NCBI GenBank assembly: GCA_016712345.1
Contig: JADJRH010000002.1
Location: forward strand, 264,466 to 328,465
Source of the DNA: Polyangiaceae bacterium
GTDB lineage: Bacteria > Myxococcota_A > Polyangia > Polyangiales > Polyangiaceae
Reading direction: 5' to 3'
DNA length: 64,000 bases
Shown here piece by piece: positions 2,789 to 64,000 of this stretch. Numbering within the stretch: the stretch's first letter is position 1; every line of letters starts with the position of its first letter. Under the pieces are notes generated by a model that was not told the DNA's origin, searched no databases, and saw only the letters and a program-made list of their open reading frames with translations. The translations under genes and the position numbers were made by a program.

Positions 2789-2850
2789 CCGATCCAACAT
2801 CGCTCATTCATGTCGCTCGCTCGGCGTGATGCGGTGCTAAACTCGCCGCA

Positions 2851-3966: not shown

Positions 3967-3970
3967 AGCC

Positions 3971-23625: not shown

Positions 23626-23772
23626 GACGCATCGGTTAGCACCCCCTATGCCCGCGCGAAAGCCCCCTGAAATAAAGGCCTGCGCGACACGCCGGTCGCA
23701 TCCCATGTACCTTCCCACTCGCGCGCCGCGTCAGCGGCGCCAAAAGTCCGGCAGGACTTTTGACACGCGGCA

Positions 23773-24831: not shown

Positions 24832-24932
24832 GGGACAATTTCGCACCCGTTTGGCCTCCCGCTGCAAGACGAATTACGCGATCGTCTGCTCTTTCGTGTT
24901 TTCAGGTTAACTCTTGGGTAAAGTGTTCCGCC

Positions 24933-29206: not shown

Positions 29207-29275
29207 GACCGGCTCTTATAGGTCAACACCCGCTTGCGAGGGAAGAGCCTTCAGCGAGGGAAGATTCTTTTGTCT

Positions 29276-29854: not shown

Positions 29855-30025
29855 TTAACTATCCATCGGTTCAAAATCCGACTTGGCGGCCCCGCAGTCG
29901 GGACAATACCAATCATCGGGGAGAGACTCAAAAGGTGTTCCGGGTGCAACACCGGAACCGGGATCTCCCTCGGCCGGATCGTACACGTGGGAGCAAACCA
30001 TGCAGCGGTATTTGCGCGCTTTCAT
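29855..30025 (-). CDS. rub: rubredoxin
   Basis: [22 protein letters not shown]...[18 protein letters not shown] gives CxxC...CPxCG with a conserved Y/W core. About 56 aa, 22 bp downstream of allantoinase. Confidence 0.8.
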
Positions 30026-30047
30026 GGTATTTGGCTCTACCACAACT

Positions 30048-31409: not shown

Positions 31410-31410
31410 G

Positions 31411-37336: not shown

Positions 37337-37346
37337 TGGCCCCACT

Positions 37347-49130: not shown

Positions 49131-52100
49131 ATGTCATTTGCGGCGATCGGGGTATTGCTCGGCGGGCGCTACCTCTTGGAGCGACGCCTTGCCGAAGGGG
49201 GCATGGGTGCCGTTTGGCGCGCGCGCCACATCAAGCTTGACGTGCCTGTTGTCGTGAAAGTGATGACGCCCGTGCTCGCGTCGTCGTCGGAGGCGCGCAC
49301 TCGGTTTGAACGCGAAGCAAAAGCCGCTGCGCGACTTACAAGTCCGCACGTTGTTGAAGTGCACGACTACGGTGTGGAGGGCGACACGCCCTACATCGTG
49401 ATGGAACACCTTGAAGGCCAGGACTTGGCGATGCGGCTCGCTGCGCGAGGCCATCTGCGGGTGGATGAAACGGCCGAGGTGATTGACCAGATAGCAAAAG
49501 CGCTCGATGTGGCGCACGCAGCCGGCGTCGTTCATCGCGACCTGAAACCGAGTAATGTATTTTTGGCGAAAACGGGGCGCGAAGAAGTTGTCAAGGTGCT
49601 TGACTTCGGTGTTGCAAAACTTCGCTCCGAGCCGGGTATAAGCACGCTGCCGGGTATGGTGATGGGCTCACCGAGCTACATGAGCCCCGAACAGACAAAG
49701 GGAGCAACGGCGCTGGACTATCGAAGCGATTTGTGGTCGCTCGGTGTTGTCGCTTTTGAATGTCTTACCGGGGCCCTGCCGTTTGATCGCGACGACGTGA
49801 CCGATCTGATTATAGCGATCAGTCAGGCACCCGTGCCGTCGGTTACGAGTTTTGCGCCGTGGCTCAATCCTGAACTCAACTCCTTTTTTGTGCGCGCGTT
49901 GTCGCGGCCCGTTGCCACGCGTTTTCAGTCCGCGCTCGAACTTGCGGAGGCATTTGTTGCCGCGGCGGGCCTGCCGGCGCGCGTTCGCTCCACATTTTCC
50001 AGTCAGGACTCCCATTCGGTAGGTGAATCGGCGGGGGCGCGACTGTCACTTTCTACCGGCTCTCTCCACAGCGAAAAAACGGTCGCACTCAGGGCCAAAC
50101 CTTCCGATGACATTTCAACTCTCACCGGTGCACCCAAGTCCAAGTCGAGGTCGGGAGCCGCCCTCGCAAACGTGGGTGAGGTCATCGCCGGCCGTTTTGA
50201 AGTGCTTTCCGCGGCGGGTGAAGGATCCATGGGAGTTGTCTTCCACACGCATGACAAGGTCACGGGGTCACAAGCGGCTCTCAAGTTATTTCGACCGAGC
50301 GTTGTGGACACATCTCGTTTTTTCCAAGAAGCCCACGCTCTGTCAGAATCGCACCATCCCGCGGTGGTGCGGTACGTTGCTCACGGAGTGACAAGCGAAG
50401 GTCAACCTTACCTTGCGATGGAATGGGTAGACGGAATCTCCCTTGCAATGCGACTCAAGCTCGGGCCGCTGGGTGTGACTGAAAGTTTGGTGCTTGCCAT
50501 TCGGCTCGCAGAAGGGTTGGGGGCGGTTCACAGAAATGGGATTGTCCACGGCGATCTGACACCTTCCAATATTCTTCTTTCGTCGGGTAGACTCGAAGAC
50601 GCCAAAATTATCGATTTTGGAATTTCGCATCGGGGCAAAAACAGCCGGTTGAATGTTTCACAACCGCTGCAAGTTACCGGAACACCGGGTTACCTCGCAC
50701 CCGAACAAGCGTTGGCCGGACAAACAACCGACTCGCGGGCCGATGTATTCTCGCTCGGTTGTGTACTCTTTGAGTGCCTTGCGGGGCGTTCACCGTTTGC
50801 GGCCGACAGCGCATTTGCCGCAATTGGAAAGCTCACCGCGGCGCCGGTTCCCCGCCTCTCGGATATCATGCCCACGGCGCCCGCCGGGCTTGACGCCCTC
50901 CTGGGTAGATTGCTCGCCCACAATCGAGAGTCACGACCTGAAAACGGTGCCGATGCTGCCGCGCTCATGGCCGCCGTTCACGATCTCGAAGCGCCGGTGT
51001 CCCGGGGTCGTGAAGGGATGACCCAAGGCGAGCGAAAACTGGTTCCGGTGGTGCTCGTTGTTCCGGCGGCCTCACTGCCAACTCTACCCACTGTGGGGCT
51101 TCAATTGGCAGCGGATGCCGCTCAGGACGATGCAACACTCAACGTTACGACCGACGTTGTCGCGCGGAACGAGCAGCTCACTCCCATTGCGAGGCGCTAC
51201 CAATGCCGGGTTGAAATTGTTCAAGGCGGCGCGTTTGCCCTGATTGGTGAAGGCGCGGGTCTACTGGTAGATCAAGCCACCCAGGCGGCATTGTGCGCCC
51301 TCGCTGTGCACGCGGCTTTCCCCGACTCCGCGGTTTCCGTGGCCACCGGACGAAAGGGAAAACGCGGTGGAGTGCTCGACCGGGCCGCGGCGTGTTTGGT
51401 GCGCGCTTTCGGCGGTGGTGAAGGCGCCCACAACGATTTGCCGCCGGTTCTCGACGACGCTTCTTTTGGTCTTCTCGACGGTAGGTTTGACATTGACCGA
51501 TCTACCCAACATTACCTTTTGAGAGGCCGGCTCCTCCGGGAAGAAGATCAAGGGCGTTTGCTGGGCAAGGTGGTTCCGTGCGCGGGGCGCGAACCCGAAC
51601 TTTCAATCCTTGATACTCTCTACCGTGAATGTTCTGAAGAGTCGACTGCCAAGGTGGTTATTATCAAAGGCCCCGCCGGTGCCGGCAAATCCCGCCTTCG
51701 ACGCGAATTTTTGCGCCGACTTAAAGACAGGGGTGAAGTTTTTATAGAATGGGTAGGTCGAGGCGACGTGATGAACGCCGGTTCCCCATTTGCCATCCTG
51801 TCCAACGCGGTGCACTCCATGTTGGACCTCGCGGGGGGTGAACCCGACGATGTTCGACGCGCTGCGCTGCGCGAAGTCGTGGCTCGTCGTGTACCCGCTG
51901 ATAGGGTAAACAGCGTGACAGCGTTCGTTGGGGAAATGGTGGGTATACCGTTTCCCGACGACAGCGACCCGCAGATTGAAGCGGCTCGTAAAGACGCTCT
52001 TTTGTTGGGCGATCAAAGGCGCCGCGCGTTTGAAGAACTCCTTGCTGCGGAGTGCTCCAAGTCGCCTCTGGTGCTCGTTCTTGAAGACTTGCACCTGTCC

Positions 52101-54080
52101 GATCTACCCACGGTGAAACTCATCGACAGCGCCCTTCGAACGCTCGAAAATCTACCCTTGTTCGTTGTCGCCACAGCGCGCGAGTCGGTGGGAGATTTGT
52201 TTCCCAAGTTATGGCACGAACGGGTGCCTCAAGAAATTCGCGTGGGGCCTCTCTCCGCAAAAGCGAGCGAAAAAATTGTTCGTTCCGTGTTGGGGGCCGC
52301 CGCGGACAAAGACCTTGTGTCAAAGGTTGTTTCACGCGCCGGTGGACATCCGCTCCACTTGGAAGAGATCGTGCGGGCCGTTGCCGAAAGACCCGGCAGC
52401 GAGTTGCCCGACACAGTGCTTGCGGTTGTGGAGGCTCGTCTCGCGGCGCTCGATCCGGCGGCGCGTTTGGTGCTTCGCGCGGCGAGCGTTTTTGGTAGAA
52501 CGTTTTGGCAAGGCGCCGTTACAGAACTCACCTCACTCCGATCTTCCACGGTTGCCGATTGGCTTCGCGACTTGGATGAACACGAATGGATCAAGCGATC
52601 TACCCTATCGCGTTTTGTGGGTGAAACCGAGTTTGTCATTCAACAGGATCTTGTACAGGAAGCTGCGTACGCCATGCTCCATGAGAGCGATCGCGAGTTG
52701 GGTCACAGACTCGCCGCCAACTTTCTTGTGCGCTCGGGCGAGCGTGATCCAACCGTGTTGTCGCGGCATTTTGAGTTGGGAGGTGACTCTGCCCGCGCCG
52801 CGCTCTGGCTTCTGCGGGCAGCGGAACAAGCTCTCGACGGCAACGACTTTGCGGCGGCTGTAACCCTTTCTGCCAAGGCTGCGGCTCTCAGCAACGATCC
52901 CATTCACGGAGGCCGGGCCGCGGCCATCTCGGCAGAGGCGAACTTGCATCGCGGCGAGTTGACAGCCGCGCGAGAACAGGCGTTTTTTGCGATGAAACAC
53001 CTCGCTCCCCCCGAGCCGGAGTATTTTCGTGCCTGCTCTTCGGCGGTGGCTTCAAGTGGAAAACTCGGCGACCTTGAAAGTGTACAGAAAGTCGCGCGGT
53101 CGCTTCTTGAGTTGGACGCGGCAAGCTGTCCACCCATTTCGCTCGCATCGGTGGGTGGAAACGGTATTGTCCAATGTTTTATTCTCGGCGATACTGCCCT
53201 CGGAACAACCTTTCTAGAGTGGTTTGATAAGATCGCCCACCAAGCCGCTCAAACAGAACCTCTCGTTGCCGCTCAACTGGCGCGGGCACGTGGGGCGAAG
53301 GCAGCGTATTCAGGCGATCTATACGGTTCAATAGAGCAGCTGCGAAACGCTGTCATCGCTTCGGACGCCGCCGGGGACATGCGCTCGGCGTGCGCGTTGC
53401 GAAAAACCCTTGGATGGTATCTCGGCGAACTTGGGGCTCTTGAAGAGGCCGAAAAAGCGCTGCGCGAGGCCATTTCCGCAGCTGATAAAATGGGTCTGAC
53501 AAGCCTCGCGCCCCATGCCAAACACGACCTGGGGTCACCGCTGCTTCGCCTGGGTAAACTCGATGAAGTGCGCATCTCTCAAGAAGAAGCCCTGATCGCC
53601 TTTGATTTGCAAGGAGACAAGCGCCTTCAGTCGAGTGCCCACGCGCTTTTGAGCGCCGTTCAGCTTTTGGCAGGCGATCTTGACGCCGCCGAACGTGAGG
53701 CGAATCTGGCCCTTTCATTGGCTCCTTCGGACATGATTCGCTTTACAGCGCTGACGCGCCTCGCCGACGCTCAACGCGCGCGTGGTCACCATGAAGAAGC
53801 TATTGCCACAGCAGATATTGCCCTCAAGGTTGCCGATGAAACGGGCAACATCGAAGAGTGTTTGGTGCTTTGTTACCTCGTTCGCGCTGAAAGTCTCATT
53901 CAGCTTGGACAACGTAACGAGGCAGAATCTACCCTGCGTCGCGCCCGAGTAGAAATCGAGCGCCGCGCCGCGGGCATCAGTGATCTCACCCTTCGCGGTT
54001 CGTTCGTTGCCCGCATCCCTGAAAATGCCCGCGTCTTGGAACTTTGTAACACGCAGTTCCAAGATCAGGGGCATTCGTGA
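49131..54080 (+). CDS. tandem Ser/Thr kinase - (pseudo)kinase - AAA(STAND) - TPR signalling protein
   Basis: Kinase 1: GGMGAVWRA, VVKV, HRDLKPSN, DFGVAK, SPSYMSPE. Kinase-like 2: GEGSMGVVF, ALKLF, HGDLTPSN (HRD->HGD, K->T), DFGIS, TPGYLAPE. A possible degenerate cyclase-like linker is followed by P-loop IIKGPAGAGKSRL and a long TPR/helical C-terminus. Confidence 0.85.
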   Translation: MSFAAIGVLLGGRYLLERRLAEGGMGAVWRARHIKLDVPVVVKVMTPVLASSSEARTRFEREAKAAARLTSPHVVEVHDYGVEGDTPYIVMEHLEGQDLAMRLAARGHLRVDETAEVIDQIAKALDVAHAAGVVHRDLKPSNVFLAKTGREEVVKVLDFGVAKLRSEPGISTLPGMVMGSPSYMSPEQTKGATALDYRSDLWSLGVVAFECLTGALPFDRDDVTDLIIAISQAPVPSVTSFAPWLNPELNSFFVRALSRPVATRFQSALELAEAFVAAAGLPARVRSTFSSQDSHSVGESAGARLSLSTGSLHSEKTVALRAKPSDDISTLTGAPKSKSRSGAALANVGEVIAGRFEVLSAAGEGSMGVVFHTHDKVTGSQAALKLFRPSVVDTSRFFQEAHALSESHHPAVVRYVAHGVTSEGQPYLAMEWVDGISLAMRLKLGPLGVTESLVLAIRLAEGLGAVHRNGIVHGDLTPSNILLSSGRLEDAKIIDFGISHRGKNSRLNVSQPLQVTGTPGYLAPEQALAGQTTDSRADVFSLGCVLFECLAGRSPFAADSAFAAIGKLTAAPVPRLSDIMPTAPAGLDALLGRLLAHNRESRPENGADAAALMAAVHDLEAPVSRGREGMTQGERKLVPVVLVVPAASLPTLPTVGLQLAADAAQDDATLNVTTDVVARNEQLTPIARRYQCRVEIVQGGAFALIGEGAGLLVDQATQAALCALAVHAAFPDSAVSVATGRKGKRGGVLDRAAACLVRAFGGGEGAHNDLPPVLDDASFGLLDGRFDIDRSTQHYLLRGRLLREEDQGRLLGKVVPCAGREPELSILDTLYRECSEESTAKVVIIKGPAGAGKSRLRREFLRRLKDRGEVFIEWVGRGDVMNAGSPFAILSNAVHSMLDLAGGEPDDVRRAALREVVARRVPADRVNSVTAFVGEMVGIPFPDDSDPQIEAARKDALLLGDQRRRAFEELLAAECSKSPLVLVLEDLHLSDLPTVKLIDSALRTLENLPLFVVATARESVGDLFPKLWHERVPQEIRVGPLSAKASEKIVRSVLGAAADKDLVSKVVSRAGGHPLHLEEIVRAVAERPGSELPDTVLAVVEARLAALDPAARLVLRAASVFGRTFWQGAVTELTSLRSSTVADWLRDLDEHEWIKRSTLSRFVGETEFVIQQDLVQEAAYAMLHESDRELGHRLAANFLVRSGERDPTVLSRHFELGGDSARAALWLLRAAEQALDGNDFAAAVTLSAKAAALSNDPIHGGRAAAISAEANLHRGELTAAREQAFFAMKHLAPPEPEYFRACSSAVASSGKLGDLESVQKVARSLLELDAASCPPISLASVGGNGIVQCFILGDTALGTTFLEWFDKIAHQAAQTEPLVAAQLARARGAKAAYSGDLYGSIEQLRNAVIASDAAGDMRSACALRKTLGWYLGELGALEEAEKALREAISAADKMGLTSLAPHAKHDLGSPLLRLGKLDEVRISQEEALIAFDLQGDKRLQSSAHALLSAVQLLAGDLDAAEREANLALSLAPSDMIRFTALTRLADAQRARGHHEEAIATADIALKVADETGNIEECLVLCYLVRAESLIQLGQRNEAESTLRRARVEIERRAAGISDLTLRGSFVARIPENARVLELCNTQFQDQGHS

Positions 54081-55168: not shown

Positions 55169-55220
55169 TTGATAATGTCGTTCCGGTGTGTTTGATCAGC
55201 TTGGCAGCAAGGAGACAATC

Positions 55221-55907
55221 ATGAACAAGCGCTTGTGGATGCTTGGTTTGGCGCTCATTCTACCCGCCTGTGACGGGGGTGGTGACGGCTCGGGTGGAAG
55301 CGCCGGTTCGGCGGGCTCCGCCGGTTCGGCGGGGGGTGAAACCACGGGAGCGGCGGGGACCGCCGGGTCTGGAACGGGAGGCAACTCTACTACCGGCTCC
55401 GGGGGCAGCACAGGCAGCACCGCGCCGGTGGGCGATTGTTCCGTGGCCATGCCCTGCACAACGGCGGGAGAGTCGTGCGTTTTTCCGGCCAACTCGTGCG
55501 GTTCAGATGCAACCGGCACGTGCAAAGAAATCACCTGTGACGGTACCGAAGAAAACCATGGTCCGATTTGCCTCTGCGATGGTGAGGTATTTGAGTTTAA
55601 CGCCGAGTGTCTGGTGTGGGATCAGAGTAAACCCATTGCCCCGGCCGACAATTGTGCCAACGGAACCTTCTCGTGCGGTACAGAAACATGCACCTACAAT
55701 ACGCAGTTTTGTATTGTGACCTACGCGGGGCCCGAGGGGTCAACTCCGTCGTATGAGTGCCGCAACGTTGTAGATGCTCAAACCACTTGCCTTTACGGCA
55801 TTTCAGATTGCGGATGTATCAACCTGACGGACCTTGGCTGCCCTGACACAAGCTGCTGTTATATGGATGGTTTCTACCAAGAAACCGTCACCATTTATCT
55901 ACCTTAG
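55221..55907 (+). CDS. Gly/Ser-linker, Cys-rich lipoprotein
   Basis: Lipobox LILPACDG. Linker GSAGSAGSAGSAGG. About 24 Cys in the C-terminal 150 aa. Confidence 0.45.
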   Translation: MNKRLWMLGLALILPACDGGGDGSGGSAGSAGSAGSAGGETTGAAGTAGSGTGGNSTTGSGGSTGSTAPVGDCSVAMPCTTAGESCVFPANSCGSDATGTCKEITCDGTEENHGPICLCDGEVFEFNAECLVWDQSKPIAPADNCANGTFSCGTETCTYNTQFCIVTYAGPEGSTPSYECRNVVDAQTTCLYGISDCGCINLTDLGCPDTSCCYMDGFYQETVTIYLP

Positions 55908-57061
55908 CGATAATTGCCGTCCGAAGGCGACTTGACTACCAATGCCTGTTTTGACAGGCCCAAGTCTTCAAGGCCGCCGCTCAACAGGCCCGCGCTGCCC
56001 GGTGGTCCGGGGAGCCATAAGGCGAACCCCCGCGCTCCAGCGTTTACTTCCCCACCCAAAGTCTGCTGATCCCACGTTCCCGTGTTCAGGTCCATTTGCC
56101 AAAGATCCCCCAACATGCTTGCACCCGTGGGTGAGTCGGACCCAAACCCCATGACAAGCGAAGTCATGTCCGCTCTAAAAGCTACCCATGGCAAACGTCG
56201 TCCCGACGGTTTAAGACCCGGTTGAATTTTGACTTCTGTCCACGTTTCTGTTGCAGGGTCAAAACTCCAAACGTCGGCTAGAAAATTGGGCGAACCGTTG
56301 AGTGGACCAAGCCCACCTAAAAGCCAGAGCGGGCCACCCTCCACCGGGTAGCGAAGGACACCGTCATAACGCGCCTGTGGCCCTTTTGCCGTCAGTTCGG
56401 TGAAGCTTCCATCGGTGGGTAGATAGCGCCACATCACATCTGAAAACCCGGTTTGCGCCGAGGCGCCGCCAAAAATGTACCCTTCGTCGCGATCGGCTAA
56501 AAAGACGGCATGACACCCAACGGGGTGTTCAGCGGCGCCGGGCGATCCAAGGGCCGTCACTTCGTTGGTGGTCAGGTTTACCTTTTCAACATTGGTGGTT
56601 TCGTTGAAATCTGTTCCTCGACCACCGATGATAATCAACTCATTTCGGTTGGTATCTACCATGGCACAGCCGCAGTATCGATTTGAAATCGGAGCAGTGA
56701 CAGCGGTTGCCTTTACCCCGTCCGCGGTTTGCTCAACGCGAACCAGATTGGCTGTTACAGGGCCCGCCGTTCCACCGACGCCCCCCACCAAATAAGCCAC
56801 TTTCCCCGATTCTTGCGCAACAATCCCACCCCATACGGGGGGTAGATTTTCAACACTGACCAGGTCAAACGACCACGGCCCCGGCTCTTCGGTCTGGGTG
56901 GTGGTACCACCCCCGGAACCACCCGTGCCGCCCGTTGTTGATGACGTTTCACCCCCGGCACCTCCCGTTGAGGTTTCCGTTGAAGAACCGTCGCAGGCCT
57001 GAACCAGCAGGCCCAGGGCTAGGGTTAGGCCCAAGCAAACATTCGATCGCATTCGATTCAT
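55904..57061 (-). CDS. Kelch/beta-propeller repeat lipoprotein
   Basis: Lipobox LLVQACDG. Gly/Thr linker. Repeated Kelch-like blades (YLVGG..., IIIGG..., YIFGG..., WLLGG..., the last followed by a GG pair). Confidence 0.5.
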   Translation of the reverse strand: MNRMRSNVCLGLTLALGLLVQACDGSSTETSTGGAGGETSSTTGGTGGSGGGTTTQTEEPGPWSFDLVSVENLPPVWGGIVAQESGKVAYLVGGVGGTAGPVTANLVRVEQTADGVKATAVTAPISNRYCGCAMVDTNRNELIIIGGRGTDFNETTNVEKVNLTTNEVTALGSPGAAEHPVGCHAVFLADRDEGYIFGGASAQTGFSDVMWRYLPTDGSFTELTAKGPQARYDGVLRYPVEGGPLWLLGGLGPLNGSPNFLADVWSFDPATETWTEVKIQPGLKPSGRRLPWVAFRADMTSLVMGFGSDSPTGASMLGDLWQMDLNTGTWDQQTLGGEVNAGARGFALWLPGPPGSAGLLSGGLEDLGLSKQALVVKSPSDGNYR

Positions 57062-57277
57062 GAGCGAGCCGCCCTCAGCAATCCGCGTGCCTCCAGAAAG
57101 GGCGACACATTTCCGGCGTTCTAAAAATGCGAATGCGAGGCTCATAAATGACAAGTGCAATCTGACAGGGCGTCAACAACTTAACGCGCGGGCGAGCACT
57201 TCGTCCTGTGCGCGCCGTCCGGTCAACTGCGCGGGTGCGTTTCGCGTCGAAATAGGATAACAACAGTCCAACTCCCT

Positions 57278-58624
57278 ATGCGCTTGTCCACCGTTCTCAC
57301 TCAGTTTCTCGTGTGCATCCCCATCATCGGTGCCGCGGGGTGTTCCTTAGCGGAGCCGATCTTAATTCCAATGTGTCAAGAAACGCCGGAGGCGCGGAGC
57401 GAGCAGAAACAACCTTCCAAGCCGCTGCCCGCGCACCCTGACTACGAGCAGCTTCGCGCGCTCAGAAACTATTATTCTGTTCAATCGGTTGAAGAGTACG
57501 CTCACCACTTTTCGGTTTGGTTCAGCTGTGTTGAGTCCAGTACGGCGCACTACACGGTTTCGCCCTCGGGTGAAGTTCGCAAAGTCGGCGGCGCGTGGGG
57601 AGGTCTCGCCACGACAGATAGAAAGGTTGACAGTGTTCCGCCGGAGCAGGCTCAAAACGCCGCTCTTGTTCGAACCGAGCACGATCGAGCGTATCTCCAC
57701 GAGTCAAAACCGATTGTTGTGTACATGGGTTCTTACCGCCGGGTTTGGGTAAATGAAGTGGTGCCGTGGCACGGTCCTGGAAGTCCATACAAACGGATGA
57801 TGAACCACATGGAAGTAGCATTTCGAGCCAATGCCGATCTTACCTCGTTCGACGGGTATGAAACGTTCTCCGGCGGCACAACAAAGCTGTGTTGGGAAGA
57901 CCTCTCTGTCCGAGACTGTTCCAACCCCCATTGGGTAGATTTCACTCCGTCCAAGTCACCCACTTCACTTCTTGTCGCGCTTGCCTCCAATAATGCGGCC
58001 GCGCCGGTTTTGTCTGAAGAACGGCAGAAGTTCAACGAAGTGGTGTTGGCCGCCGCTCGCAAAAAAGTGGCAGGTGAGCCGGGCACCCCGCTCGCCGATA
58101 TTCTAACGCATCAAGAAGCGACCTTACTCCCCACCGGCTACAATCCCGAATTTGTCATTGGGTTTAGAATGCACGCCCACCCTAAAGAAGGTGCAAACCA
58201 AAAAAACGTGGAGTCACAGTTTTCAAAAACCCTTCTTTTGAGCGACATTTTTAAGGGTTCAATCAAAACAACATTGGAAGGTCAAGTGGCCGGTCAACCC
58301 GTCAGCGCCGACGTGACCATCTCGGTTGACCCGAAACCGCCCCAACCTCAAGGCGAGTTTGAAACATCGCTCCAGTTTGTGTACACAATTCGTGCCGTGG
58401 GCAGTTCGCGCTCGGCCGAGTTAAAGGTAACCGCCAAAGTGATTGTCGACGGTGATCGTGTGGCTCTCCTGTGGAGAAATCTACCCAAAGAGGTTGAGCA
58501 GGCTCCACATTTGCCGCCGCTGACTCAAACGTTTGCCGGTACCGGAATGTATAAAGAAGTGGAAAGCCACTTTTTTCTGACAAGCGACACCATGCCCAAA
58601 CCGTGGTATCCGCCGAGCAGGTAG
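57278..58624 (+). CDS. hypothetical lipoprotein
   Basis: Lipobox IIGAAGCS. No recognisable domain. Confidence 0.35.
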   Translation: MRLSTVLTQFLVCIPIIGAAGCSLAEPILIPMCQETPEARSEQKQPSKPLPAHPDYEQLRALRNYYSVQSVEEYAHHFSVWFSCVESSTAHYTVSPSGEVRKVGGAWGGLATTDRKVDSVPPEQAQNAALVRTEHDRAYLHESKPIVVYMGSYRRVWVNEVVPWHGPGSPYKRMMNHMEVAFRANADLTSFDGYETFSGGTTKLCWEDLSVRDCSNPHWVDFTPSKSPTSLLVALASNNAAAPVLSEERQKFNEVVLAAARKKVAGEPGTPLADILTHQEATLLPTGYNPEFVIGFRMHAHPKEGANQKNVESQFSKTLLLSDIFKGSIKTTLEGQVAGQPVSADVTISVDPKPPQPQGEFETSLQFVYTIRAVGSSRSAELKVTAKVIVDGDRVALLWRNLPKEVEQAPHLPPLTQTFAGTGMYKEVESHFFLTSDTMPKPWYPPSR

Positions 58625-58632
58625 GCCGCGGC

Positions 58633-59112
58633 TCAGGTTTTTTGCCGGCCAGACTCGGCTTCATAAAACGCTTCTGAGTAGCGTTCTGCAGCCGCCGCGT
58701 CTCGTGCAAAAACGCGCGCAAAATGGCGCTCAGCGCGGAGATAGTCGGCGGTGGAAAGGCCTCGGGCTGCCACCGCCTTTTCCACTCCTACCACCGAGAT
58801 GGCAAAACGTAGGCGCGCCCATTCTTCAACTGTCAGGTTTGGAACCGGAGCAAGCGCGTCCTGGGCCTTGGCAAACGCTGCCGCAAATGTTTCTGCGACG
58901 TTTGGTTCGCCGCCGGCCAACGCTTCTTGTGCCATTTGTTCGAGGTAGTGGGTTTCAGCCCGCTTCCACTCGTCGCGCGTCAGCGAGTGCGCGGCGAGCA
59001 CATTGGCCAACGTGGCTCCGGCCTCGGCCAGGGCCGCTTTTATAGCAGCCACTTGTTCAAGCGTCATCTCCGGGGCGTGTGGCTCCTGTGCCATATCTAT
59101 GCGCCGAACCAT
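58633..59112 (-). CDS. hypothetical helical protein
   Basis: ORF only. Divergent from the DUF2169 gene. Confidence 0.3.
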   Translation of the reverse strand: MVRRIDMAQEPHAPEMTLEQVAAIKAALAEAGATLANVLAAHSLTRDEWKRAETHYLEQMAQEALAGGEPNVAETFAAAFAKAQDALAPVPNLTVEEWARLRFAISVVGVEKAVAARGLSTADYLRAERHFARVFARDAAAAERYSEAFYEAESGRQKT

Positions 59113-59157
59113 AGTTTTGAGATTTTATCAGGTCAACAAGTATGCGACACTGCCTGT

Positions 59158-60144
59158 ATGGGTTTTCTCAATGCGACCCCGTACGTCGCTCTCGACTTCG
59201 CTGTCACAGACCATGAAGGTCGGGCGGTTGTGGTCGCCATTGTCAAAGCCACCTTTGACATTCAACAAGGGAAGGCGACGCTCGCAGAAGAACAAATTCC
59301 GCTTCGAGCAAACGATGTCCCCCTGAATGTAGAAAACCCAATGGGAAGTATCCAGTTTGCCTCCGACCTTTGTCATATCAAACACGGCGCCGATGTGTTG
59401 GTTGTCGGGGAGGCGGTTTCGCGTTCTGCCGTCAAGTCGCTCGATGTTTCGGTAAAAGTGGCGTCCAAAGCACTCACGGTGCGCGTTTTCGGAGATAGGC
59501 AGTTTGTTCAGGGCGCTTCCGATATTGTGGTGGGCGCGGCTCTGCCGTTTGAGCGTATGCCCATTGTGTATGAGCGGGCCTACGGGGGTATGACAGAAGA
59601 CCTGACGGAGATCGAAGAGCGCAATCCTGCGGGCGTCGGCGTTGCCAAGAAAAAAAAGGATCTGGTTGGGCGGCCGGCGCCGCAGGTAGAGCACCCATCG
59701 TTGCCTCACAAAACAGCCAATGACAAACATCCGCCCATCGGTCTCGGTCCGATCATGACTCATTGGCTGCCGCGTCGGTCGTACGCCGGAACATTCGATG
59801 AAACGTGGAAAACCACGCGCATGCCCATGATGCCGGCAGACTACAACATCAAATACAATAACTGCGCTCACCCAAGCCTGGTGTTCGACAATCCTCTGGC
59901 GCCCGGTGACCCCGTTTCTGTGCTTGGTATGCACGAAGATGGGTTGCTCGCATTTGACATCCCCAACTGGAAGGCGGTTGCCCGCGCCCGGTTTGAACAC
60001 AAAGGTAAGGTTACCATTCCTCTCGGCGTGGATACATTGGTGCTTCACCCCAATGACAAGCGGTTTGAAATGGTGGGTAGGTACGCTTTCCCCGTGGGTA
60101 GGGGAGGTGACGTGCTCCGTGAACTTTCGGTGGACTTTGCGTAG
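59158..60144 (+). CDS. DUF2169 domain protein (type VI secretion effector-adaptor family)
   Basis: N-terminus NATPYVALDFAVTDHEGRAVVVAIVKATFDI matches my recollection of the DUF2169 N-terminal consensus (..TPF.a..f...d..g....vvvvKaTy.l). Size about 330 aa. I cannot verify the Pfam hit without a search. Confidence 0.5.
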   Translation: MGFLNATPYVALDFAVTDHEGRAVVVAIVKATFDIQQGKATLAEEQIPLRANDVPLNVENPMGSIQFASDLCHIKHGADVLVVGEAVSRSAVKSLDVSVKVASKALTVRVFGDRQFVQGASDIVVGAALPFERMPIVYERAYGGMTEDLTEIEERNPAGVGVAKKKKDLVGRPAPQVEHPSLPHKTANDKHPPIGLGPIMTHWLPRRSYAGTFDETWKTTRMPMMPADYNIKYNNCAHPSLVFDNPLAPGDPVSVLGMHEDGLLAFDIPNWKAVARARFEHKGKVTIPLGVDTLVLHPNDKRFEMVGRYAFPVGRGGDVLRELSVDFA

Positions 60145-60190
60145 TTTTGCGTGGTTTGGCCGGCGTTTGCGCGGGTAAAGCAGCCGAGTG

Positions 60191-62008
60191 TTATCGCAGT
60201 TTATGATCCCATGAACCTACCCGGTATGACGCCAATGCGCGTTTGGCCGCACCCGTCAGCGGGGCAAGGGCAGGGGTAAGATCCGTGAGCCAGGCTGCCA
60301 AATCAACCTTCTCGGTCACTCCACAGCGCGACCGCAACTCTGAAAGACGCAGCCCCATCTCGCGTCGCGTCAGCTCTCCCGACAGAAGCTCTTCCACAAC
60401 CACCGCGGGACTCCACGGTCGACCCCGCCGATACCGCGCCGATGGGTCGAGCTTCGCGTTTGCCAGCGCCGATTTCCAAGCTGATTTGTCGAGCCGCTCG
60501 TCGGAGTCGACCATGGGGCCAAACAGCGTTTCAAGCGCGTTTGCGGCGTCGTCGGCCAAATCTTCGTCACCCAATTGAGCCGTCAGATAAGACCAGGCAC
60601 CCGGATGTCCAAATCGAGCCAGGGTAGACAAGGTGGCGGCCGACTTTGGAACCCGCGCAAGCAAGTTGGCAAGAAGTGTGTTGTCCTCACTGTTTCCCGC
60701 ACGAACAAGCACTTCCCCGGCGAGCTGCGAAAGCCTGGATGTTTCAGGTGCGCCGCTTTTAAGCGCGCGGTACGGATCTTCCAAACCCCACGCGAGCAGC
60801 GTGGACGCCGCCGTACAGGCCACCGTTGCATCCGGGAAGGTGAGCCATTTGCGTACGACGGGGAAAAGCGGTTCGGCAGCCGTTACATCAAGCCGGCGGG
60901 CCGCCCATAGAGCTGCGCGCAGAACGGTAAGATCGGGATCAAACAAAAAGGACCGGAGCTGGTCAATGGGTAGAGCCTGTTTTCTACCCAGGAAGTAGAC
61001 CGCCACGGCCCTGCAAGGTGAGTGGGGATGTTGAAGCAGTCGCCGCGAGAATTCGTCGAGTTCTGGGTGGGGAGAACAGGCCAGGGCCTCAAAAGCCTTG
61101 TGCGCGGCGAGGGCATCCGTCGGTGCCAACCGTAACAGTCCGTATTCTACCGCGTCAAGAATATCCGAACCCGAAAAACTCCCCAACGCGAATACCGCGG
61201 CCCAGGTGTTCCAAGGGTTGGGCGACGAAAGTGAACGGCCCCAGGCGCCCACAAGAATGGGGACAATCGCACCGCCGATGCTGACCATTGCGTCCACGTG
61301 GGCGAGGATGCGCGCTTCAACCTCCGAACGAGCGGCAAAGGGCCTTTCTGCCCGGTGCCTTCCCAACATGGAAAGGCGGTCGAGCGCGAGCACTACAATC
61401 TCTTCATGGAGCAAATGCTCATCGATGGCGCCTCCTTTGCCATCGATCGCGGTTACCACCGGAGGCGGCCCTTTGGGTAGATCGGGATCGGGTTGACCTC
61501 GCCCCAAGGCAGCCGGAGCCGGTTTAAAATCGTCAAATGGGGACGGCAGATCGTCATTTTCGGGCGCAGCGGTTACAGTTTCGAGTGGTGTTGTTGTTGC
61601 AGCAGAAGAGACGCTCGCGGGTAGAAAAACGTCTCGGACGGGCGACTTCAAAACAACCCGTTCAGGTTCGGCCACAAGCAGCGTTGGGATTGTGGGCGTT
61701 GGGAGCGTTCCAACCGAGGGGTGGAGAAGCGCTTGGCACCGTAGGCTTTCACCGTAGGCCCGCGCCACCGTTTGCAGCGTTTCAAGGTCGAGCGCATGGT
61801 TACCTGCCAACACCGTGGCGCGCTGTGCGAGGGTGGAAACCGCGCGCGTTACAGCATCCAGATTGGGTGGGCCTCCCAAGCCTTCCACTGTGTCGAGCAA
61901 AGCGCCCAGCGGGGTTTGGATGGATGTTTTCCAGGTGCCATCTGGCATGGAAGCAATGCGGTCAAAGGCGGCTCGCAGGTGTTTTGCGAGGTCTTTCGCG
62001 GAGGTCAT
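60191..62008 (-). CDS. large hypothetical protein (possible T6SS cargo)
   Basis: Start chosen at MTSAKDL, giving a 4-nt overlap with the upstream gene. Helical, HEAT-like C-terminal half. No motif recognised. Confidence 0.35.
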   Translation of the reverse strand: MTSAKDLAKHLRAAFDRIASMPDGTWKTSIQTPLGALLDTVEGLGGPPNLDAVTRAVSTLAQRATVLAGNHALDLETLQTVARAYGESLRCQALLHPSVGTLPTPTIPTLLVAEPERVVLKSPVRDVFLPASVSSAATTTPLETVTAAPENDDLPSPFDDFKPAPAALGRGQPDPDLPKGPPPVVTAIDGKGGAIDEHLLHEEIVVLALDRLSMLGRHRAERPFAARSEVEARILAHVDAMVSIGGAIVPILVGAWGRSLSSPNPWNTWAAVFALGSFSGSDILDAVEYGLLRLAPTDALAAHKAFEALACSPHPELDEFSRRLLQHPHSPCRAVAVYFLGRKQALPIDQLRSFLFDPDLTVLRAALWAARRLDVTAAEPLFPVVRKWLTFPDATVACTAASTLLAWGLEDPYRALKSGAPETSRLSQLAGEVLVRAGNSEDNTLLANLLARVPKSAATLSTLARFGHPGAWSYLTAQLGDEDLADDAANALETLFGPMVDSDERLDKSAWKSALANAKLDPSARYRRGRPWSPAVVVEELLSGELTRREMGLRLSELRSRCGVTEKVDLAAWLTDLTPALAPLTGAAKRALASYRVGSWDHKLR

Positions 62009-63057
62009 GAGGCACCCAACCTTACCCATGCTCCGCCGCGGAGGCCGTCGGGAGAAATCGCCCATGAAAAGTGGGCTTTGGTGTCGGCCGGAGTCACCGG
62101 CAGATGATGCCGCAACGTGGAAACGCCCCACACGACATTGGCAACACCCGCCGCGGCGCCCATTCTACCCACGTAATCTTCCGCACCTGAAAAGGTGCAT
62201 GCCGGGCCAAACATTTCAGCGTTTCGGGCCGAAGCAAAGTTCCACTCCTGACTCCGAAAATCATCCACCATACTCTGTCCAAATACGGCGCCCACCGCCT
62301 CGCCCTGGGCTGTCTCTCGAAATACCTTTCCCAGCGCCGTGCCGTCGGGCGGCTCGTCGTTGTCGTCGGCCGAGACGCTCTTCGACACAGCGCTTTTCAC
62401 GATGGAGGCTATCACCTGACTGCCGGCGCGGCGCGCTCCGGGTGGAGTCATCAGCGCCAACGCGGCGGCACCTTCGGAAAAGGGGAGAGGGTCGCGCGCC
62501 CAAGGACTTGGGGGGTGAGTGAGATGGTAGGCGAGAACATTCAGGTCGACAAACGAGTCAACAGCGACCACGCAGAGAATCGAACTCGCGCTTTTTACAG
62601 CAAGTGACTCTGCATCGCGGAGGGTAGAAAAAACACCCGCCTCCCCATGCGTTTTTGAAGCGAGTGAAGCGCCGCAGTCCGACGCCAGGGCGCGAGCGAG
62701 ATCATCGGCCGACCGCGCGCTGAAAAGGTCCGACGGAGCGCGTGTACACACCGCGAGCGAAAGTGTGAGATCGGTAACATCGGGTTTTTCACCTTCGCGC
62801 GGCGTGAGAAATCCAAGTTGTCGAAGTGGGTCAAGCGCGTCTTTTACCGCGCGTTTTGCCATGAGAAAAAGCCGCTCCGAAAGAGGAACCTTGGCTCCAA
62901 TGTGGCGGCAATATCGAACATCTACCCGTTTGTCTTGGGCGTCGACAAAAGGGGAAGGTGACGGTGCCGGTAGGCCCGCGGCGCTGAAGAACACGTGCTG
63001 CTGCGGAGTGAAACCCACCGGCGAAACAAGCCCGGTGCCCACGATCGCAAGTGTCAT
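62005..63057 (-). CDS. hypothetical protein with beta-ketoacyl-synthase-like N-terminus
   Basis: MTLAIVGTGLVSPVGFT resembles the KAS/thiolase-fold N-terminus, but no Cys-His-His catalytic constellation is evident. 4-nt overlaps with both neighbours. Confidence 0.3.
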   Translation of the reverse strand: MTLAIVGTGLVSPVGFTPQQHVFFSAAGLPAPSPSPFVDAQDKRVDVRYCRHIGAKVPLSERLFLMAKRAVKDALDPLRQLGFLTPREGEKPDVTDLTLSLAVCTRAPSDLFSARSADDLARALASDCGASLASKTHGEAGVFSTLRDAESLAVKSASSILCVVAVDSFVDLNVLAYHLTHPPSPWARDPLPFSEGAAALALMTPPGARRAGSQVIASIVKSAVSKSVSADDNDEPPDGTALGKVFRETAQGEAVGAVFGQSMVDDFRSQEWNFASARNAEMFGPACTFSGAEDYVGRMGAAAGVANVVWGVSTLRHHLPVTPADTKAHFSWAISPDGLRGGAWVRLGAS

Positions 63058-64000
63058 GTGTGTCCCGTTTCACCGCTCTGTTTGGAAGAGTTGTTGATTT
63101 TGATGTTCGCGGCATCAATGAGTACACCGCTGTCGGACGCTGTGACGGTTGTTCCTCCCACGTTAAAGCTCACCTTGGCGCCTTTCATGGTGAGGGAACC
63201 GGCCACAGTGAGAGAAATCGAGGCGGCCGACTTGATGGTATGTTTCGCTTTGGAGACGCTTTTCAGCGACCCTGCGATTTGGGTATTGATAGGCCCTTTC
63301 ACATCACGCGACATAGGGCCTTTGGTTTCGATCTTGAGACTGCCCAACGTTTCGGTAGAAGCGCCGAGCACGGATACTCCACCCCGCGCGGCTTTGGTAG
63401 AATAACTACCCGCGATGAGAAACGTGGAAGCTCCCACGGTGTGCCAGCCGACATTGCCCGGCGAAACGGCCGCGTACGTGCTTCCGATCATCTCCATCAT
63501 GGCCCCTTTTACACCCGTGTTGCGGTGCCCCGGACCGGGCCCCGCCGCCGCGGATGAATCGCTCGCCCCGGATCCGCCTCCACCGCCGGCGCTGTCGCCG
63601 GGAGGGGCCGCACCCGCTTCCCATGGCGCGGGTTGGGCAATGCCTTGGACAGTGGAGAGAATGGCATCACCCCCCGGGATCATACCCGCTCCAACACCGA
63701 GAGCGCTCATTCCCGCACCTGACAGAGCACCGCGCCAACCGCCTGTTCTGTAACCTTCCACAGCCGCCATCCCAGCGCCGCCAACCGCCGCGGCCACGGC
63801 TCCCCATGTTCCCGCTGCGCCCACACCTGAAAGTACCGCCGCTTTTCCGAGATTGGTAAGCCCCGTGACCGGATCGCCAACTTTTTCAAGTACGGCGGCT
63901 CCTACCATGACCGATTCACTACCCACTAGAATAATGGTTTTCCCTTTGACATAGATCTTTTGCGATCCACCCACCGTTGCCGACTGCGATCCCACAGCGG
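63054..64000 (-). CDS. C-terminal part of a VgrG-like / phage-spike beta-helix protein (N-terminus beyond window)
   Basis: Periodic Gly/hydrophobic beta-helix-like repeats (SLKIETKGPMSRDVKGPINTQIAGSLKSVSKAKHTIKSAASISLTVAGSLTMKGAKVSFNVGG) and a Gly/Ala-rich segment. The ORF runs off the 3' window edge. Confidence 0.35.
   Translation of the reverse strand, partial: AVGSQSATVGGSQKIYVKGKTIILVGSESVMVGAAVLEKVGDPVTGLTNLGKAAVLSGVGAAGTWGAVAAAVGGAGMAAVEGYRTGGWRGALSGAGMSALGVGAGMIPGGDAILSTVQGIAQPAPWEAGAAPPGDSAGGGGGSGASDSSAAAGPGPGHRNTGVKGAMMEMIGSTYAAVSPGNVGWHTVGASTFLIAGSYSTKAARGGVSVLGASTETLGSLKIETKGPMSRDVKGPINTQIAGSLKSVSKAKHTIKSAASISLTVAGSLTMKGAKVSFNVGGTTVTASDSGVLIDAANIKINNSSKQSGETGHT

What the first reader, a model, noticed from the sequence alone, without database searches (positions are those of the whole stretch)
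59158..64000. Probable type VI secretion cargo island: VgrG-like spike C-terminus, two coupled unknown genes, convergent DUF2169 adaptor
On the minus strand a beta-helical, Gly-repeat protein runs off the window edge; it is probably the C-terminus of a VgrG or phage-like spike. It is followed with 4-nt overlaps by a 350-aa KAS-like-N-terminus protein and an approximately 605-aa helical protein. A DUF2169-like gene, the family that acts as T6SS effector adaptor or chaperone, converges on this operon. The coupled unknown genes are candidates for a novel T6SS effector or effector-loading complex; no known toxin domain is recognisable.
Basis: partly seen in the sequence, partly recalled or inferred. 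Interest (0 to 1): 0.6.

Follow-up and report, generated by a model that had tools for sequence, protein, structure and literature searches.

The report
Type VI secretion spike-loading accessory genes
The end of this window, from a Polyangiaceae myxobacterium, holds the tail of a type VI secretion spike gene (VgrG) and helper genes that most likely mount a toxin on the spike rather than being toxins; the gene set is a new variant of a helper system described in 2025-2026.

Summary
On the minus strand, a truncated VgrG C-terminus (63054-64000), a 350-aa gene and a 605-aa gene are joined by ATGA overlaps. A DUF2169 gene (59158-60144, Pfam E=1.6e-80) converges on them.

Complete orthologues of the truncated gene are full VgrGs. 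The two "unknown" genes are probably not effectors:
- The 350-aa protein is a thiolase-fold pseudoenzyme, distantly related to PRK06147/TvpD.
- The 605-aa protein is a HEAT/ARM solenoid, distantly related to TIGR02270.
- They are fused into one polypeptide in about 25 of the 150 best relatives.

Across 27 related loci the pair follows one special VgrG 26 times. That VgrG carries a conserved insertion of about 120 aa, rich in Gly and Ala. DUF2169, a small 160-aa protein and Rhs toxins with DUF4150/"PIPY" tip domains recur nearby in shuffled orders.

This is a Polyangiales variant of the Tvp class II / DUF2169 "synteny type A" spike-loading system. The toxin cargo is not in the window; I predict it lies beyond the edge.

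Three features appear undescribed: the VgrG insertion, the obligate thiolase-HEAT unit, and Rhs as cargo.

Interest is moderate.

The parts
63054..64000 (-). C-terminal 314 codons of a VgrG spike gene ('VgrG*'), cut by the window edge. The gp27 and OB-fold parts must lie beyond position 64000.
   Evidence: No Pfam hit on the fragment itself. It is 48-69% identical over its full length to the C-termini of complete VgrGs of 836-847 aa. In the L002 orthologue, Phage_GPD spans residues 22-325, Phage_base_V 373-439 and Gp5_trimer_C 457-561.
63519..63893 (-). Insertion of about 125 aa inside the VgrG* beta-prism. It has two Gly/Ala-rich, moderately hydrophobic stretches full of small-xxx-small motifs, then PAPW, a Gly/Ser-rich linker and the invariant GPGPGHRN (63522-63542).
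   Evidence: Absent from paralogous VgrGs in the same gene arrays. The motif occurs once per locus, always in the VgrG directly upstream of the thiolase-like gene, with the stop 488-491 nt after the motif in 13 of 15 loci (L009 differs, L012 runs off its contig). 25% of columns are invariant in the insertion, against 16-20% in the flanking prism. Kyte-Doolittle hydrophobicity peaks at about 1.2.
62005..63057 (-). 350-aa thiolase-fold pseudoenzyme, a distant relative of PRK06147 / TvpD. Its start overlaps the VgrG* stop (ATGA).
   Evidence: NCBIfam PRK06147 E=1.3e-15, residues 2-319 against profile positions 5-319 of 349, below the curated cut-off. 22 of 29 family members hit PRK06147. AF2 model pLDDT 91.9. 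Best PDB neighbours are FabF and KS-CLF, TM about 0.76 at 13-16% identity. The catalytic positions are replaced.
60191..62008 (-). 605-aa all-helical protein: N-terminal four-helix bundle (residues 1-95), extended segment (96-145), disordered linker (146-178) and HEAT/ARM solenoid (197-594). Its start overlaps the 350-aa stop (ATGA).
59158..60144 (+). DUF2169 protein (TvpA-type T6SS chaperone), 328 aa, convergent on the operon.
   Evidence: Pfam PF09937 E=1.6e-80, full profile. Orthologues sit next to the module in varying positions and orientations.
58633..59112 (-). 159-aa helical protein, divergent from the DUF2169 gene. Possible facultative fifth component; function unknown.
   Evidence: Homologues lie next to DUF2169 or the HEAT gene in L001, L003, L009, L011 and L013. 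Most are longer (385-556 aa), with a Pro-rich linker and a second copy of the domain. Only a weak sub-threshold PspA hit.

Best explanation
Window 58633-64000 is the distal half of a Polyangiales type VI secretion spike-loading island.

The minus-strand operon encodes three products:
- a specialised VgrG (VgrG*, with a conserved Gly/Ala-rich insertion of about 120 aa in its beta-prism);
- a catalytically dead thiolase-fold protein (TvpD-like);
- a HEAT/ARM solenoid.

The last two work as one unit. A DUF2169 (TvpA) chaperone gene sits next to them.

The proposed mechanism is by analogy with Tvp class II / DUF2169 synteny type A systems (P. aeruginosa VgrG1b-Tse7, P. mirabilis pef). DUF2169, the thiolase-like protein and the HEAT protein would form a cytoplasmic cradle. 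The cradle shields a DUF4150/'PIPY' tip domain, which in this lineage belongs to an Rhs toxin encoded in a neighbouring cassette. It then mounts that domain on the VgrG* trimer before firing. The helper proteins are not themselves toxins.

Shown here: domain identities, folds, loss of catalytic residues, gene coupling and fusion, conserved synteny, and PIPY-Rhs genes in related loci.

Inferred: the physical complex, the chaperone role, the VgrG* insertion as docking site for the thiolase-HEAT unit, and a PIPY-Rhs cargo just beyond the window edge.
For: 1. DUF2169 is a full-length match. DUF2169 proteins chaperone PIPY domains on VgrG (PMC11883445; PMC13373197).

2. The 350-aa protein is PRK06147-like, the family named TvpD and modelled as co-chaperone of the Tse7 PAAR-like domain. 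The fold is thiolase. The KAS catalytic residues are replaced: the nucleophile elbow reads G138-E/D/A139-A140, FabF H303 aligns with Q261, K335 with E293 and H340 with R298.

3. The 605-aa protein is a HEAT/ARM scaffold with no enzyme or toxin neighbour. Synteny type A also contains an armadillo-like protein. PRK06147-TIGR02270 fusions were noted by Liu 2020.

4. Rosetta-stone evidence: 22 complete and 3 partial fusions of the two proteins occur among the 150 best relatives, including L005, L014 and L015.

5. Synteny:
- VgrG* sits directly upstream of the thiolase-like gene in 26 of 27 loci where the upstream DNA is visible.
- The HEAT gene follows, or is fused, in 24 of 24 loci where downstream DNA is visible.
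- DUF2169 is present in 13 loci, in varying position and orientation.

6. Cargo in relatives:
- L014: VgrG*, fusion, 102-aa PIPY-like protein, Rhs.
- L030: thiolase, HEAT, 160-aa protein, PIPY-Rhs, all on one strand.
- L016: Rhs, PIPY-like and 156-aa genes, divergent from DUF2169, thiolase and HEAT.
- Polyangium and Sorangium loci carry a VgrG / 160-aa / PIPY-Rhs / immunity cassette just upstream of VgrG*.
- The PIPY-like domains hit Pfam PF13665 (Tox-PAAR-like, which I take to be DUF4150) in 7 of 9 members, best E=5e-5.
Against: - No PIPY/DUF4150 gene, Rhs gene or 160-aa gene is visible in the window itself. The cargo claim for this genome is a prediction.
- The matches to PRK06147 (57.5 bits against a cut-off of 342) and TIGR02270 (59.3 against 206.8) are far below the curated cut-offs, so these are distant relatives, not members.
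- Three relatives with full 10-kb flanks show no DUF2169 (L006, L008, L010).
- In the published class II models, TvpA and TvpD barely touch VgrG. That does not explain why the thiolase-HEAT unit tracks the VgrG* insertion so strictly.
- No interaction or secretion data exist for any member of this variant.
- T6SS core genes were not seen in the window.
Confidence: 0.7

Rival explanations
1. VgrG* is itself the payload. On this reading it is an 'internally evolved' VgrG whose Gly/Ala-rich, glycine-zipper-like insertion is a membrane-active domain. The thiolase-HEAT unit and DUF2169 would then be its dedicated chaperones, shielding the hydrophobic loops in the producer cell.
For: - The insertion is specific to the VgrG that precedes the thiolase-HEAT genes and is absent from paralogous VgrGs in the same arrays.
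- It is at least as conserved as the flanking prism.
- It holds two runs of consecutive small-xxx-small motifs.
- The window and L002-L005 show no toxin gene between VgrG* and the end of the module.
Against: - Hydrophobicity is only moderate: the Kyte-Doolittle maximum is about 1.2, below typical transmembrane values.
- No immunity-like gene is conserved next to VgrG*.
- PIPY-Rhs toxins with immunity genes co-occur in at least 12 related loci and would explain the presence of DUF2169.
Confidence: 0.12
2. This is the first reader's idea: the 605-aa protein, alone or with the 350-aa protein, is a novel cargo effector carried by VgrG*.
For: - The genes sit immediately downstream of a vgrG, the usual place for cargo effectors.
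- No known function is assigned.
- Many charged residues are invariant, including an RYRRGxPW motif.
Against: - Only the HEAT/ARM scaffold fold is detected; no toxin or enzyme neighbour appears.
- The thiolase partner has lost its active site.
- No immunity gene is conserved next to it.
- The pair is linked to DUF2169 and to separate Rhs toxins across lineages.
- Family members with extra C-terminal sequence carry no toxin domain.
Confidence: 0.08
3. The module is a decaying orphan remnant: an inverted DUF2169 gene, no cargo, and no function.
For: - DUF2169 is inverted relative to the operon.
- No cargo or T6SS core gene is visible in the window.
- One relative (L001) has a frameshifted VgrG.
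Against: - All four ORFs are intact, with preserved ATGA coupling.
- The same convergent arrangement is conserved at 37-69% identity in Polyangium, Sorangium and other Polyangiaceae genomes.
- Family-wide invariant residues indicate purifying selection.
Confidence: 0.05

Closest known systems
Tvp class II accessory system / DUF2169 synteny type A. Examples: the P. aeruginosa vgrG1b cluster (PA0095-PA0099, Tse7) and the P. mirabilis pef operon. Sources: PMC13373197, PMC11883445, PMC5714391.
   Same: - A VgrG gene is linked to a single-domain DUF2169 (TvpA) and to a thiolase-like PRK06147-type protein (TvpD).
- Synteny type A also lists an armadillo-like repeat protein.
- The related loci found here also contain DUF4150/PIPY-domain toxins and a small protein that may play the TvpC role.
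   Different: - Gene order is vgrG, thiolase, HEAT, with DUF2169 convergent or elsewhere. The published order is vgrG, DUF6484, DUF2169, thiolase, PIPY effector.
- The thiolase and HEAT proteins form an obligate coupled or fused unit.
- The VgrG carries a family-specific insertion.
- Cargo in relatives is Rhs. I did not see Rhs described as cargo of a class II or type A system in the passages I read, which name Tox-GHH2-type toxins (Tse7, PefD).
- There is no Pfam-level DUF6484 protein.
- Matches to PRK06147 and TIGR02270 fall well below the family cut-offs.
PRK06147 'novel adaptor' (Liu et al. 2020, PMC7714669)
   Same: - A thiolase-like protein next to VgrG and DUF2169. In that study 74% of PRK06147 homologues are near DUF2169.
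- 3.8% are fused to TIGR02270.
   Different: - In that survey the gene after PRK06147 is usually a PAAR-domain effector. Here it is always the HEAT protein.
- Fusion or coupling to the HEAT domain is the rule in this clade rather than a rarity.
Tvp class III (Serratia marcescens TvpAB/TvpB/TvpC with VgrG1; PMC13373197)
   Same: An unusual VgrG beta-prism goes together with extra, larger accessory proteins that are proposed to contact the prism.
   Different: - Class III uses pentapeptide-repeat domains, a DUF3540 TvpC and a long but uninterrupted prism.
- Here the extra proteins are a thiolase-HEAT unit, and the prism carries an inserted Gly/Ala-rich domain.
Beta-ketoacyl-ACP synthase II (FabF) and ketosynthase/chain-length-factor pairs
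   Same: Same thiolase fold (TM about 0.76).
   Different: - Sequence identity is only 13-16%.
- The Cys-His-His triad and the catalytic Lys are replaced.
- The genomic context is secretion, not lipid or polyketide synthesis.
Evolved VgrGs with effector domains, such as V. cholerae VgrG1-ACD and VgrG3 (from general knowledge, not tested here)
   Same: A VgrG carrying extra sequence beyond the gp27/gp5 core.
   Different: In known evolved VgrGs the extra domain is a C-terminal extension with a recognisable enzymatic fold. Here it is an internal insertion in the prism with no recognisable fold.

Membership tests
VgrG (TssI) spike protein | gp27-like hub domain (Phage_GPD) and gp5 OB-fold (Phage_base_V) | not testable with these tools
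   That part of the window gene lies beyond position 64000. Complete orthologues with 47-69% identical C-termini have both domains. The source contig could not be fetched.
VgrG (TssI) spike protein | C-terminal trimeric beta-prism continuous with Gp5_trimer_C | tested here: met
   The fragment aligns end to end with residues 533-847 of the L002 VgrG, directly after its Gp5_trimer_C domain (457-561). It also aligns with the prisms of paralogous VgrGs on either side of the insertion.
DUF2169 / TvpA chaperone | Full-length DUF2169 domain | tested here: met
   PF09937 E=1.6e-80, 271 bits against a cut-off of 25, profile positions 1-294 of 294.
DUF2169 / TvpA chaperone | A linked DUF4150/PIPY-domain partner gene. 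PMC11883445 reports strict co-occurrence. | tested here: inconclusive
   None found in the window, by motif scans or by Pfam on the neighbouring genes. At least 12 related loci have PIPY-like genes within 10 kb. Those domains match PF13665 in 7 of 9 members.
TvpD / PRK06147 (NF004798) | Score above the NCBIfam cut-off (342 bits) | tested here: not met
   57.5 bits, E=1.3e-15, although the alignment is nearly full length. 22 of 29 family members match, best E=2.4e-27. This is a distant relative, not an equivalog.
TvpD / PRK06147 (NF004798) | Thiolase-like fold encoded next to vgrG and DUF2169 | tested here: met
   Fold. Context.
TIGR02270 family | Score above the cut-off (206.8 bits) | tested here: not met
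   59.3 bits, E=3.3e-16, residues 229-499 against profile positions 36-298 of 410. 13 of 29 alignment members scanned match, best E=1.2e-18; about 21 of the 29 are fusion proteins.
Armadillo-like protein of DUF2169 synteny type A (IPR006911) | Sequence homology to the P. mirabilis or P. aeruginosa protein | not tested
Only the shared repeat-solenoid class and the shared context are known.
Tvp class II complex | DUF6484 TvpC protein (a small mimic of the VgrG tip) | tested here: inconclusive
   None in the window. Related loci have a conserved protein of about 160 aa beside VgrG* or the PIPY-Rhs gene. It gives only weak hits: DUF2345 in 4 of 9 members (best E=0.009), DUF3540 in 1 (E=0.14), and hhalign against a VgrG alignment at 38% probability.
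Beta-ketoacyl-ACP synthase (active enzyme) | Cys-His-His catalytic triad | tested here: not met
   No conserved Cys at the nucleophile elbow (G138-E/D/A-A140). FabF H303 aligns with Q261 and H340 with R298.
T6SS toxic effector (for the 350-aa and 605-aa proteins) | A recognisable toxin or enzyme domain and an adjacent immunity gene | tested here: not met
   There is no toxin family hit, and the structural neighbours are scaffolds only. No partner gene is conserved apart from DUF2169 and the 159-aa family.

The most novel reading that the evidence does not exclude
The Gly/Ala-rich insertion in the VgrG* prism may be a membrane-active (glycine-zipper-type) payload displayed on the side of the spike. 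The thiolase-HEAT unit and DUF2169 would then have been recruited as its chaperones. That would be a spike that is its own effector through an internal insertion rather than a C-terminal extension.

A milder version is that the insertion is a new docking platform, which would define a fourth class of Tvp-type loading complex.
Probability: 0.12. Interest if true: 0.7.

Novelty: new variant of a known kind. Interest (0 to 1): 0.4.

Why it matters
DUF2169/Tvp spike-loading complexes were defined only in 2025-2026, and almost entirely in Proteobacteria.

This locus and about 27 relatives show a myxobacterial variant with three distinctive features:
- The poorly understood thiolase-like co-chaperone is permanently paired or fused with a HEAT/ARM solenoid.
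- That unit tracks a VgrG with a conserved inserted domain.
- The likely cargo is Rhs toxins with PIPY tips.

The variant gives a concrete, testable handle on two open points: what the thiolase-like and armadillo-like proteins of type A clusters do, and how accessory complexes recognise one VgrG paralogue among several.

It also corrects an annotation risk. These genes should not be counted as novel toxins.

Tried and rejected
1. **Fetching the source contig.** I tried to fetch it to complete the VgrG gene. An exact-product look-up failed for the 350-aa protein and for its 100%-identical NCBI entry (MAG Polyangiaceae, IPK82_21550). The genome scan did not return the source genome.

2. **A gp5-only VgrG mimic.** I considered that the truncated ORF might be a gp5-only, TvpC-like mimic, because its L001 homologue was called as 515 aa without gp27. 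I rejected this: the gp27 part is present at L001 9022-9972 in another frame, so that call reflects a frameshift or assembly error.

3. **Locus search with HEAT-family alignments.** Two attempts failed because no stretch was conserved enough. I used the VgrG* and thiolase alignments instead.

4. **Plasmid search.** tblastn of both proteins against the plasmid collection found nothing.

5. **Profile search for named HEAT relatives.** The aim was to link the family to named Pseudomonas or Proteus proteins. It returned only two Polyangiaceae hypothetical proteins and one marginal HEAT-repeat protein.

6. **AFDB fold search.** The library was unavailable.

7. **Toxin domains in longer family members.** Pfam found none.

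8. **Promoter and terminator scan.** Nothing stood out above the shuffled controls.

9. **Base composition.** GC in 59-64 kb (0.54-0.64) overlaps the 0.53-0.62 seen across 50-59 kb, with only the last 500-bp bin slightly higher, so I see no clear sign of recent transfer.

10. **Paralogues.** There are no paralogues of the module genes elsewhere in the window.


Full report
**1. Observation**

- On the minus strand, an open frame runs off the edge (63054-64000, 314 codons).
- It is followed by a 350-aa gene (62005-63057) and a 605-aa gene (60191-62008).
- Both junctions are ATGA start/stop overlaps.
- A 328-aa gene on the plus strand (59158-60144) converges on the operon, leaving a 46-bp gap.
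- GC content is mostly within the range seen across 50-59 kb.
- A 159-aa helical gene (58633-59112, minus strand) is transcribed divergently from the plus-strand gene.

The 350-aa and 605-aa products are 100% identical to hypothetical proteins IPK82_21550 and IPK82_21545 of a Polyangiaceae MAG. The organism is therefore a myxobacterium of the Polyangiales.

**2. The individual genes**

*DUF2169.* The plus-strand product is a complete DUF2169 domain (PF09937, E=1.6e-80).

*VgrG.* The truncated ORF has no Pfam hit of its own.
- Its homologues are annotated VgrG.
- Complete orthologues of 836-847 aa carry Phage_GPD (residues 22-325), Phage_base_V (373-439) and Gp5_trimer_C (457-561), followed by about 290 further residues to which the window fragment aligns end to end.
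- One homologue was called as a 515-aa protein lacking gp27. That is a frameshift: the gp27 part lies just upstream in another frame.

*The 350-aa protein.*
- It matches NCBIfam PRK06147 nearly full length, but far below the cut-off (E=1.3e-15, 57.5 against 342 bits).
- 22 of 29 family members match PRK06147.
- Its AlphaFold model is confident (pLDDT 91.9).
- The nearest solved structures are FabF and ketosynthase/chain-length-factor proteins (TM about 0.76, 13-16% identity).
- The condensing-enzyme active site is gone. There is no conserved Cys at the nucleophile elbow (G138-E/D/A139-A140). FabF H303, K335 and H340 align with Q261, E293 and R298.
- It is a pseudoenzyme scaffold.

*The 605-aa protein.*
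- It scores for HEAT_2 and, below the cut-off, for TIGR02270.
- Its model (pLDDT 91.3, pTM 0.90) has four parts: a four-helix bundle (residues 1-95), a confidently placed extended segment (96-145), a disordered linker (146-178) and a HEAT/ARM solenoid (197-594).
- No toxin or enzyme fold appears, and family members with extra sequence carry no toxin domain.

**3. The two 'unknown' genes are one functional unit**

An exhaustive HMMER search found 337 representative relatives of the 605-aa protein.
- The conserved part is the solenoid (about residues 200-600).
- Among the best 150, 22 complete and 3 N-terminally truncated sequences carry a homologue of the 350-aa protein fused at the N-terminus (28-37% identity over about 340 residues).
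- 13 of the 29 alignment members scanned, about 21 of them fusions, hit TIGR02270 as well.
- Liu et al. 2020 had noted PRK06147-TIGR02270 fusions as a rarity (PMC7714669). In this clade, coupling or fusion is the rule.

**4. Conserved neighbourhood**

I collected 30 related loci and mapped the components with tblastn. The loci are not all phylogenetically independent.
- In 26 of the 27 loci where DNA upstream of the thiolase-like gene is visible, including the window, the gene directly upstream is a VgrG that aligns with the window fragment. The exception, L016, has DUF2169 there.
- Wherever downstream DNA is visible (24 loci), the HEAT gene follows or is fused.
- DUF2169 is present in 13 loci, but in variable places:
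  - convergent right after the HEAT gene (window, L002, L003, L004, L005);
  - co-directional and overlapping (L001, L015, L016);
  - at the head of a multi-vgrG array (L009, L011, L013, L023);
  - 6.7 kb downstream (L017).
- Three loci with full 10-kb flanks lack DUF2169 (L006, L008, L010).

**5. The VgrG insertion**

I aligned the module's VgrG with paralogous VgrGs from the same arrays.
- The alignment shows an insertion of about 110-130 residues in the beta-prism.
- In the window fragment this is residues 36-160, coordinates 63519-63893.
- It consists of two Gly/Ala-rich stretches full of small-xxx-small motifs, then PAPW, a Gly/Ser linker and the invariant GPGPG[HY]RN.
- That motif occurs once per locus, always in the VgrG preceding the thiolase-like gene. 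The stop follows 488-491 nt later in 13 of 15 loci; L009 differs and L012 runs off its contig.
- The insertion is at least as conserved as the flanking prism: 25% invariant columns against 16-20%.
- A distant relative retains it (L014, 32% identity).
- Hydrophobicity is moderate, with a Kyte-Doolittle maximum of about 1.2.
- I know of no described VgrG with such an internal insertion. The paper library returned nothing on myxobacterial VgrG/DUF2169 systems beyond Liu 2020.

**6. Where the cargo is**

Neither the window nor the immediate module holds a toxin or a PAAR-type gene. Relatives do.
- L014 reads VgrG*, fusion, 102-aa protein, Rhs (DUF6531 plus RHS repeats).
- L016 has Rhs, a 106-aa gene and a 156-aa gene, divergent from DUF2169, thiolase and HEAT.
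- L030 has thiolase, HEAT, a 160-aa protein and Rhs on one strand.
- In Polyangium, Sorangium and other Polyangiaceae loci, a cassette of VgrG, about 160 aa, Rhs and immunity genes lies immediately upstream of VgrG*.
- The small 102-106-aa proteins and the N-termini of these Rhs proteins share a domain with a P-x-P-[FY]-[PL]-[YH] motif.
- That domain hits Pfam PF13665 (Tox-PAAR-like, which I take to be DUF4150) in 7 of 9 members (best E=5e-5). This is the 'PIPY' domain that DUF2169 proteins chaperone.
- The 160-aa family might play the TvpC role of a small VgrG-tip mimic, but the evidence is weak: DUF2345 in 4 of 9 members, DUF3540 in 1, and hhalign at 38% probability.

**7. Comparison with what is known**

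- Sachar et al. 2025 (PMC11883445) showed that DUF2169 is a chaperone needed for VgrG-PIPY spike tips. They defined synteny type A as vgrG, DUF6484, DUF2169, thiolase-like, PIPY effector and an armadillo-like repeat protein.
- In the P. mirabilis pef operon the downstream genes pefF and pefG are needed for killing (PMC5714391).
- Monlezun et al. 2026 (PMC13373197) named the components TvpA (DUF2169), TvpC (DUF6484 or DUF3540) and TvpD (PRK06147). They proposed a two-step assembly in which a TvpC pre-complex is replaced by VgrG. They do not discuss a HEAT or armadillo component.

The window module works like a class II / type A system, but it differs in several ways:
- the gene order;
- the obligate thiolase-HEAT unit;
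- the VgrG insertion;
- Rhs as cargo;
- the low similarity to the reference families, with membership cut-offs not met for PRK06147 and TIGR02270.

**8. Mechanism and confidence**

Most likely (about 0.7): DUF2169, the thiolase-like protein and the HEAT protein form a cytoplasmic cradle. It stabilises a PIPY tip domain of an Rhs toxin and loads it on the VgrG* trimer.

The strict pairing of the thiolase-HEAT unit with the VgrG* insertion suggests that the insertion is its docking site. That step is inference.

Rivals:
- The insertion is itself a membrane-active payload (about 0.12).
- The 605-aa protein is a novel effector (about 0.08).
- The module is a non-functional remnant (about 0.05).

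**9. Limits**

- The gp27 half of the gene and anything beyond position 64000 could not be read.
- None of the ORFs scanned with Pfam in the window up to 58.6 kb is a T6SS core gene. They encode housekeeping functions, including purine catabolism, phosphofructokinases, a DUF444-SpoVR pair, signalling kinases and hydrolases. Whether the genome has a T6SS is therefore untested.
- No interaction, secretion or toxicity data exist for this variant.

**10. Verdict**

This is a new variant of a recently described kind of T6SS accessory system, not a novel effector. Interest is moderate (0.4).

Noticed in passing
window 58633-59112 (-); L001 16550-17631, L003 13826-15271, L009 13157-14314, L011 2776-3990, L013 614-2284: The 159-aa helical protein beside DUF2169 belongs to a family that recurs next to DUF2169 or the HEAT gene. 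Most members are longer (385-556 aa), with a Pro-rich disordered linker carrying repeated 'ALPF/LPF' motifs and a second, C-terminal copy of part of the domain. No family assignment was found.
   Followed up: partly
window 63054-63065 (-); the last four residues of VgrG* in the related loci: Most VgrG* proteins end in a conserved tail with a His two residues from the C-terminus (GHT, THT, DHS, SHR, HHQ). L003 and L011 are exceptions. Three such His residues at the trimer tip could bind a metal, as in phage spike tips; this is speculation.
   Followed up: no
window 61574-61723 (-), residues 96-145 of the 605-aa protein: An extended, non-helical segment between the N-terminal bundle and the disordered linker is modelled with high confidence (pLDDT 85-95), and the overall pTM is 0.90. 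It may lie in the groove of the solenoid as an internal pseudo-ligand. The coordinates could not be inspected.
   Followed up: no
L002 1647-2159, L009 7883-8377, L011 13443-13922, L016 3011-3481 (-), L030 2068-2523 and others: A conserved family of about 160 aa (motifs G-P-G-L-H-A-x-x-I-E, G-P-x-x-L-G-A-L-Q-T, ending V-E-L-P) sits beside VgrG* or directly before the PIPY-Rhs genes. It may be an analogue of the TvpC spike-tip mimic, but database support is weak.
   Followed up: partly
L001 9022-11548: The VgrG* gene of this 622-kb ENA contig is split by a frameshift near 9972-9995 and was therefore called as a 515-aa gp5-only protein. In the same locus the DUF2169 gene is also split, and a 355-aa protein with a weak CxxCxxCC hit lies between the HEAT and DUF2169 genes.
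   Followed up: partly
window 49131-54080 (+): A 1649-aa protein with two tandem Ser/Thr kinase-like regions followed by a long helical region. This reading comes from the translated sequence; Pfam was not run on it. Kinase-containing genes also flank the module in L004.
   Followed up: no
window 55188-57160: Two back-to-back predicted lipoproteins with Gly/Ser/Thr-rich linkers. One is a Cys-rich 239-aa protein on the + strand. The other is a 418-aa Kelch beta-propeller on the - strand. They are followed by a 448-aa predicted lipoprotein (57278-58624) with no family hit and no homologue in the related loci.
   Followed up: no
window 27662-33024 (-): A purine-catabolism cluster: a membrane urate oxidase with a cytochrome c domain, an amidohydrolase, and an allantoicase fused to OHCU decarboxylase.
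   Followed up: no
window 2830-5530 (+); 22333-24873 (-); 12822-15668 (+); 35552-37366 (-): Other genes in the window: a DUF444 (YeaH-like) and SpoVR pair, two adjacent phosphofructokinase paralogues, an unrelated 948-aa HEAT-repeat protein, and a 604-aa ORF with no Pfam hit. None is related to the module.
   Followed up: no
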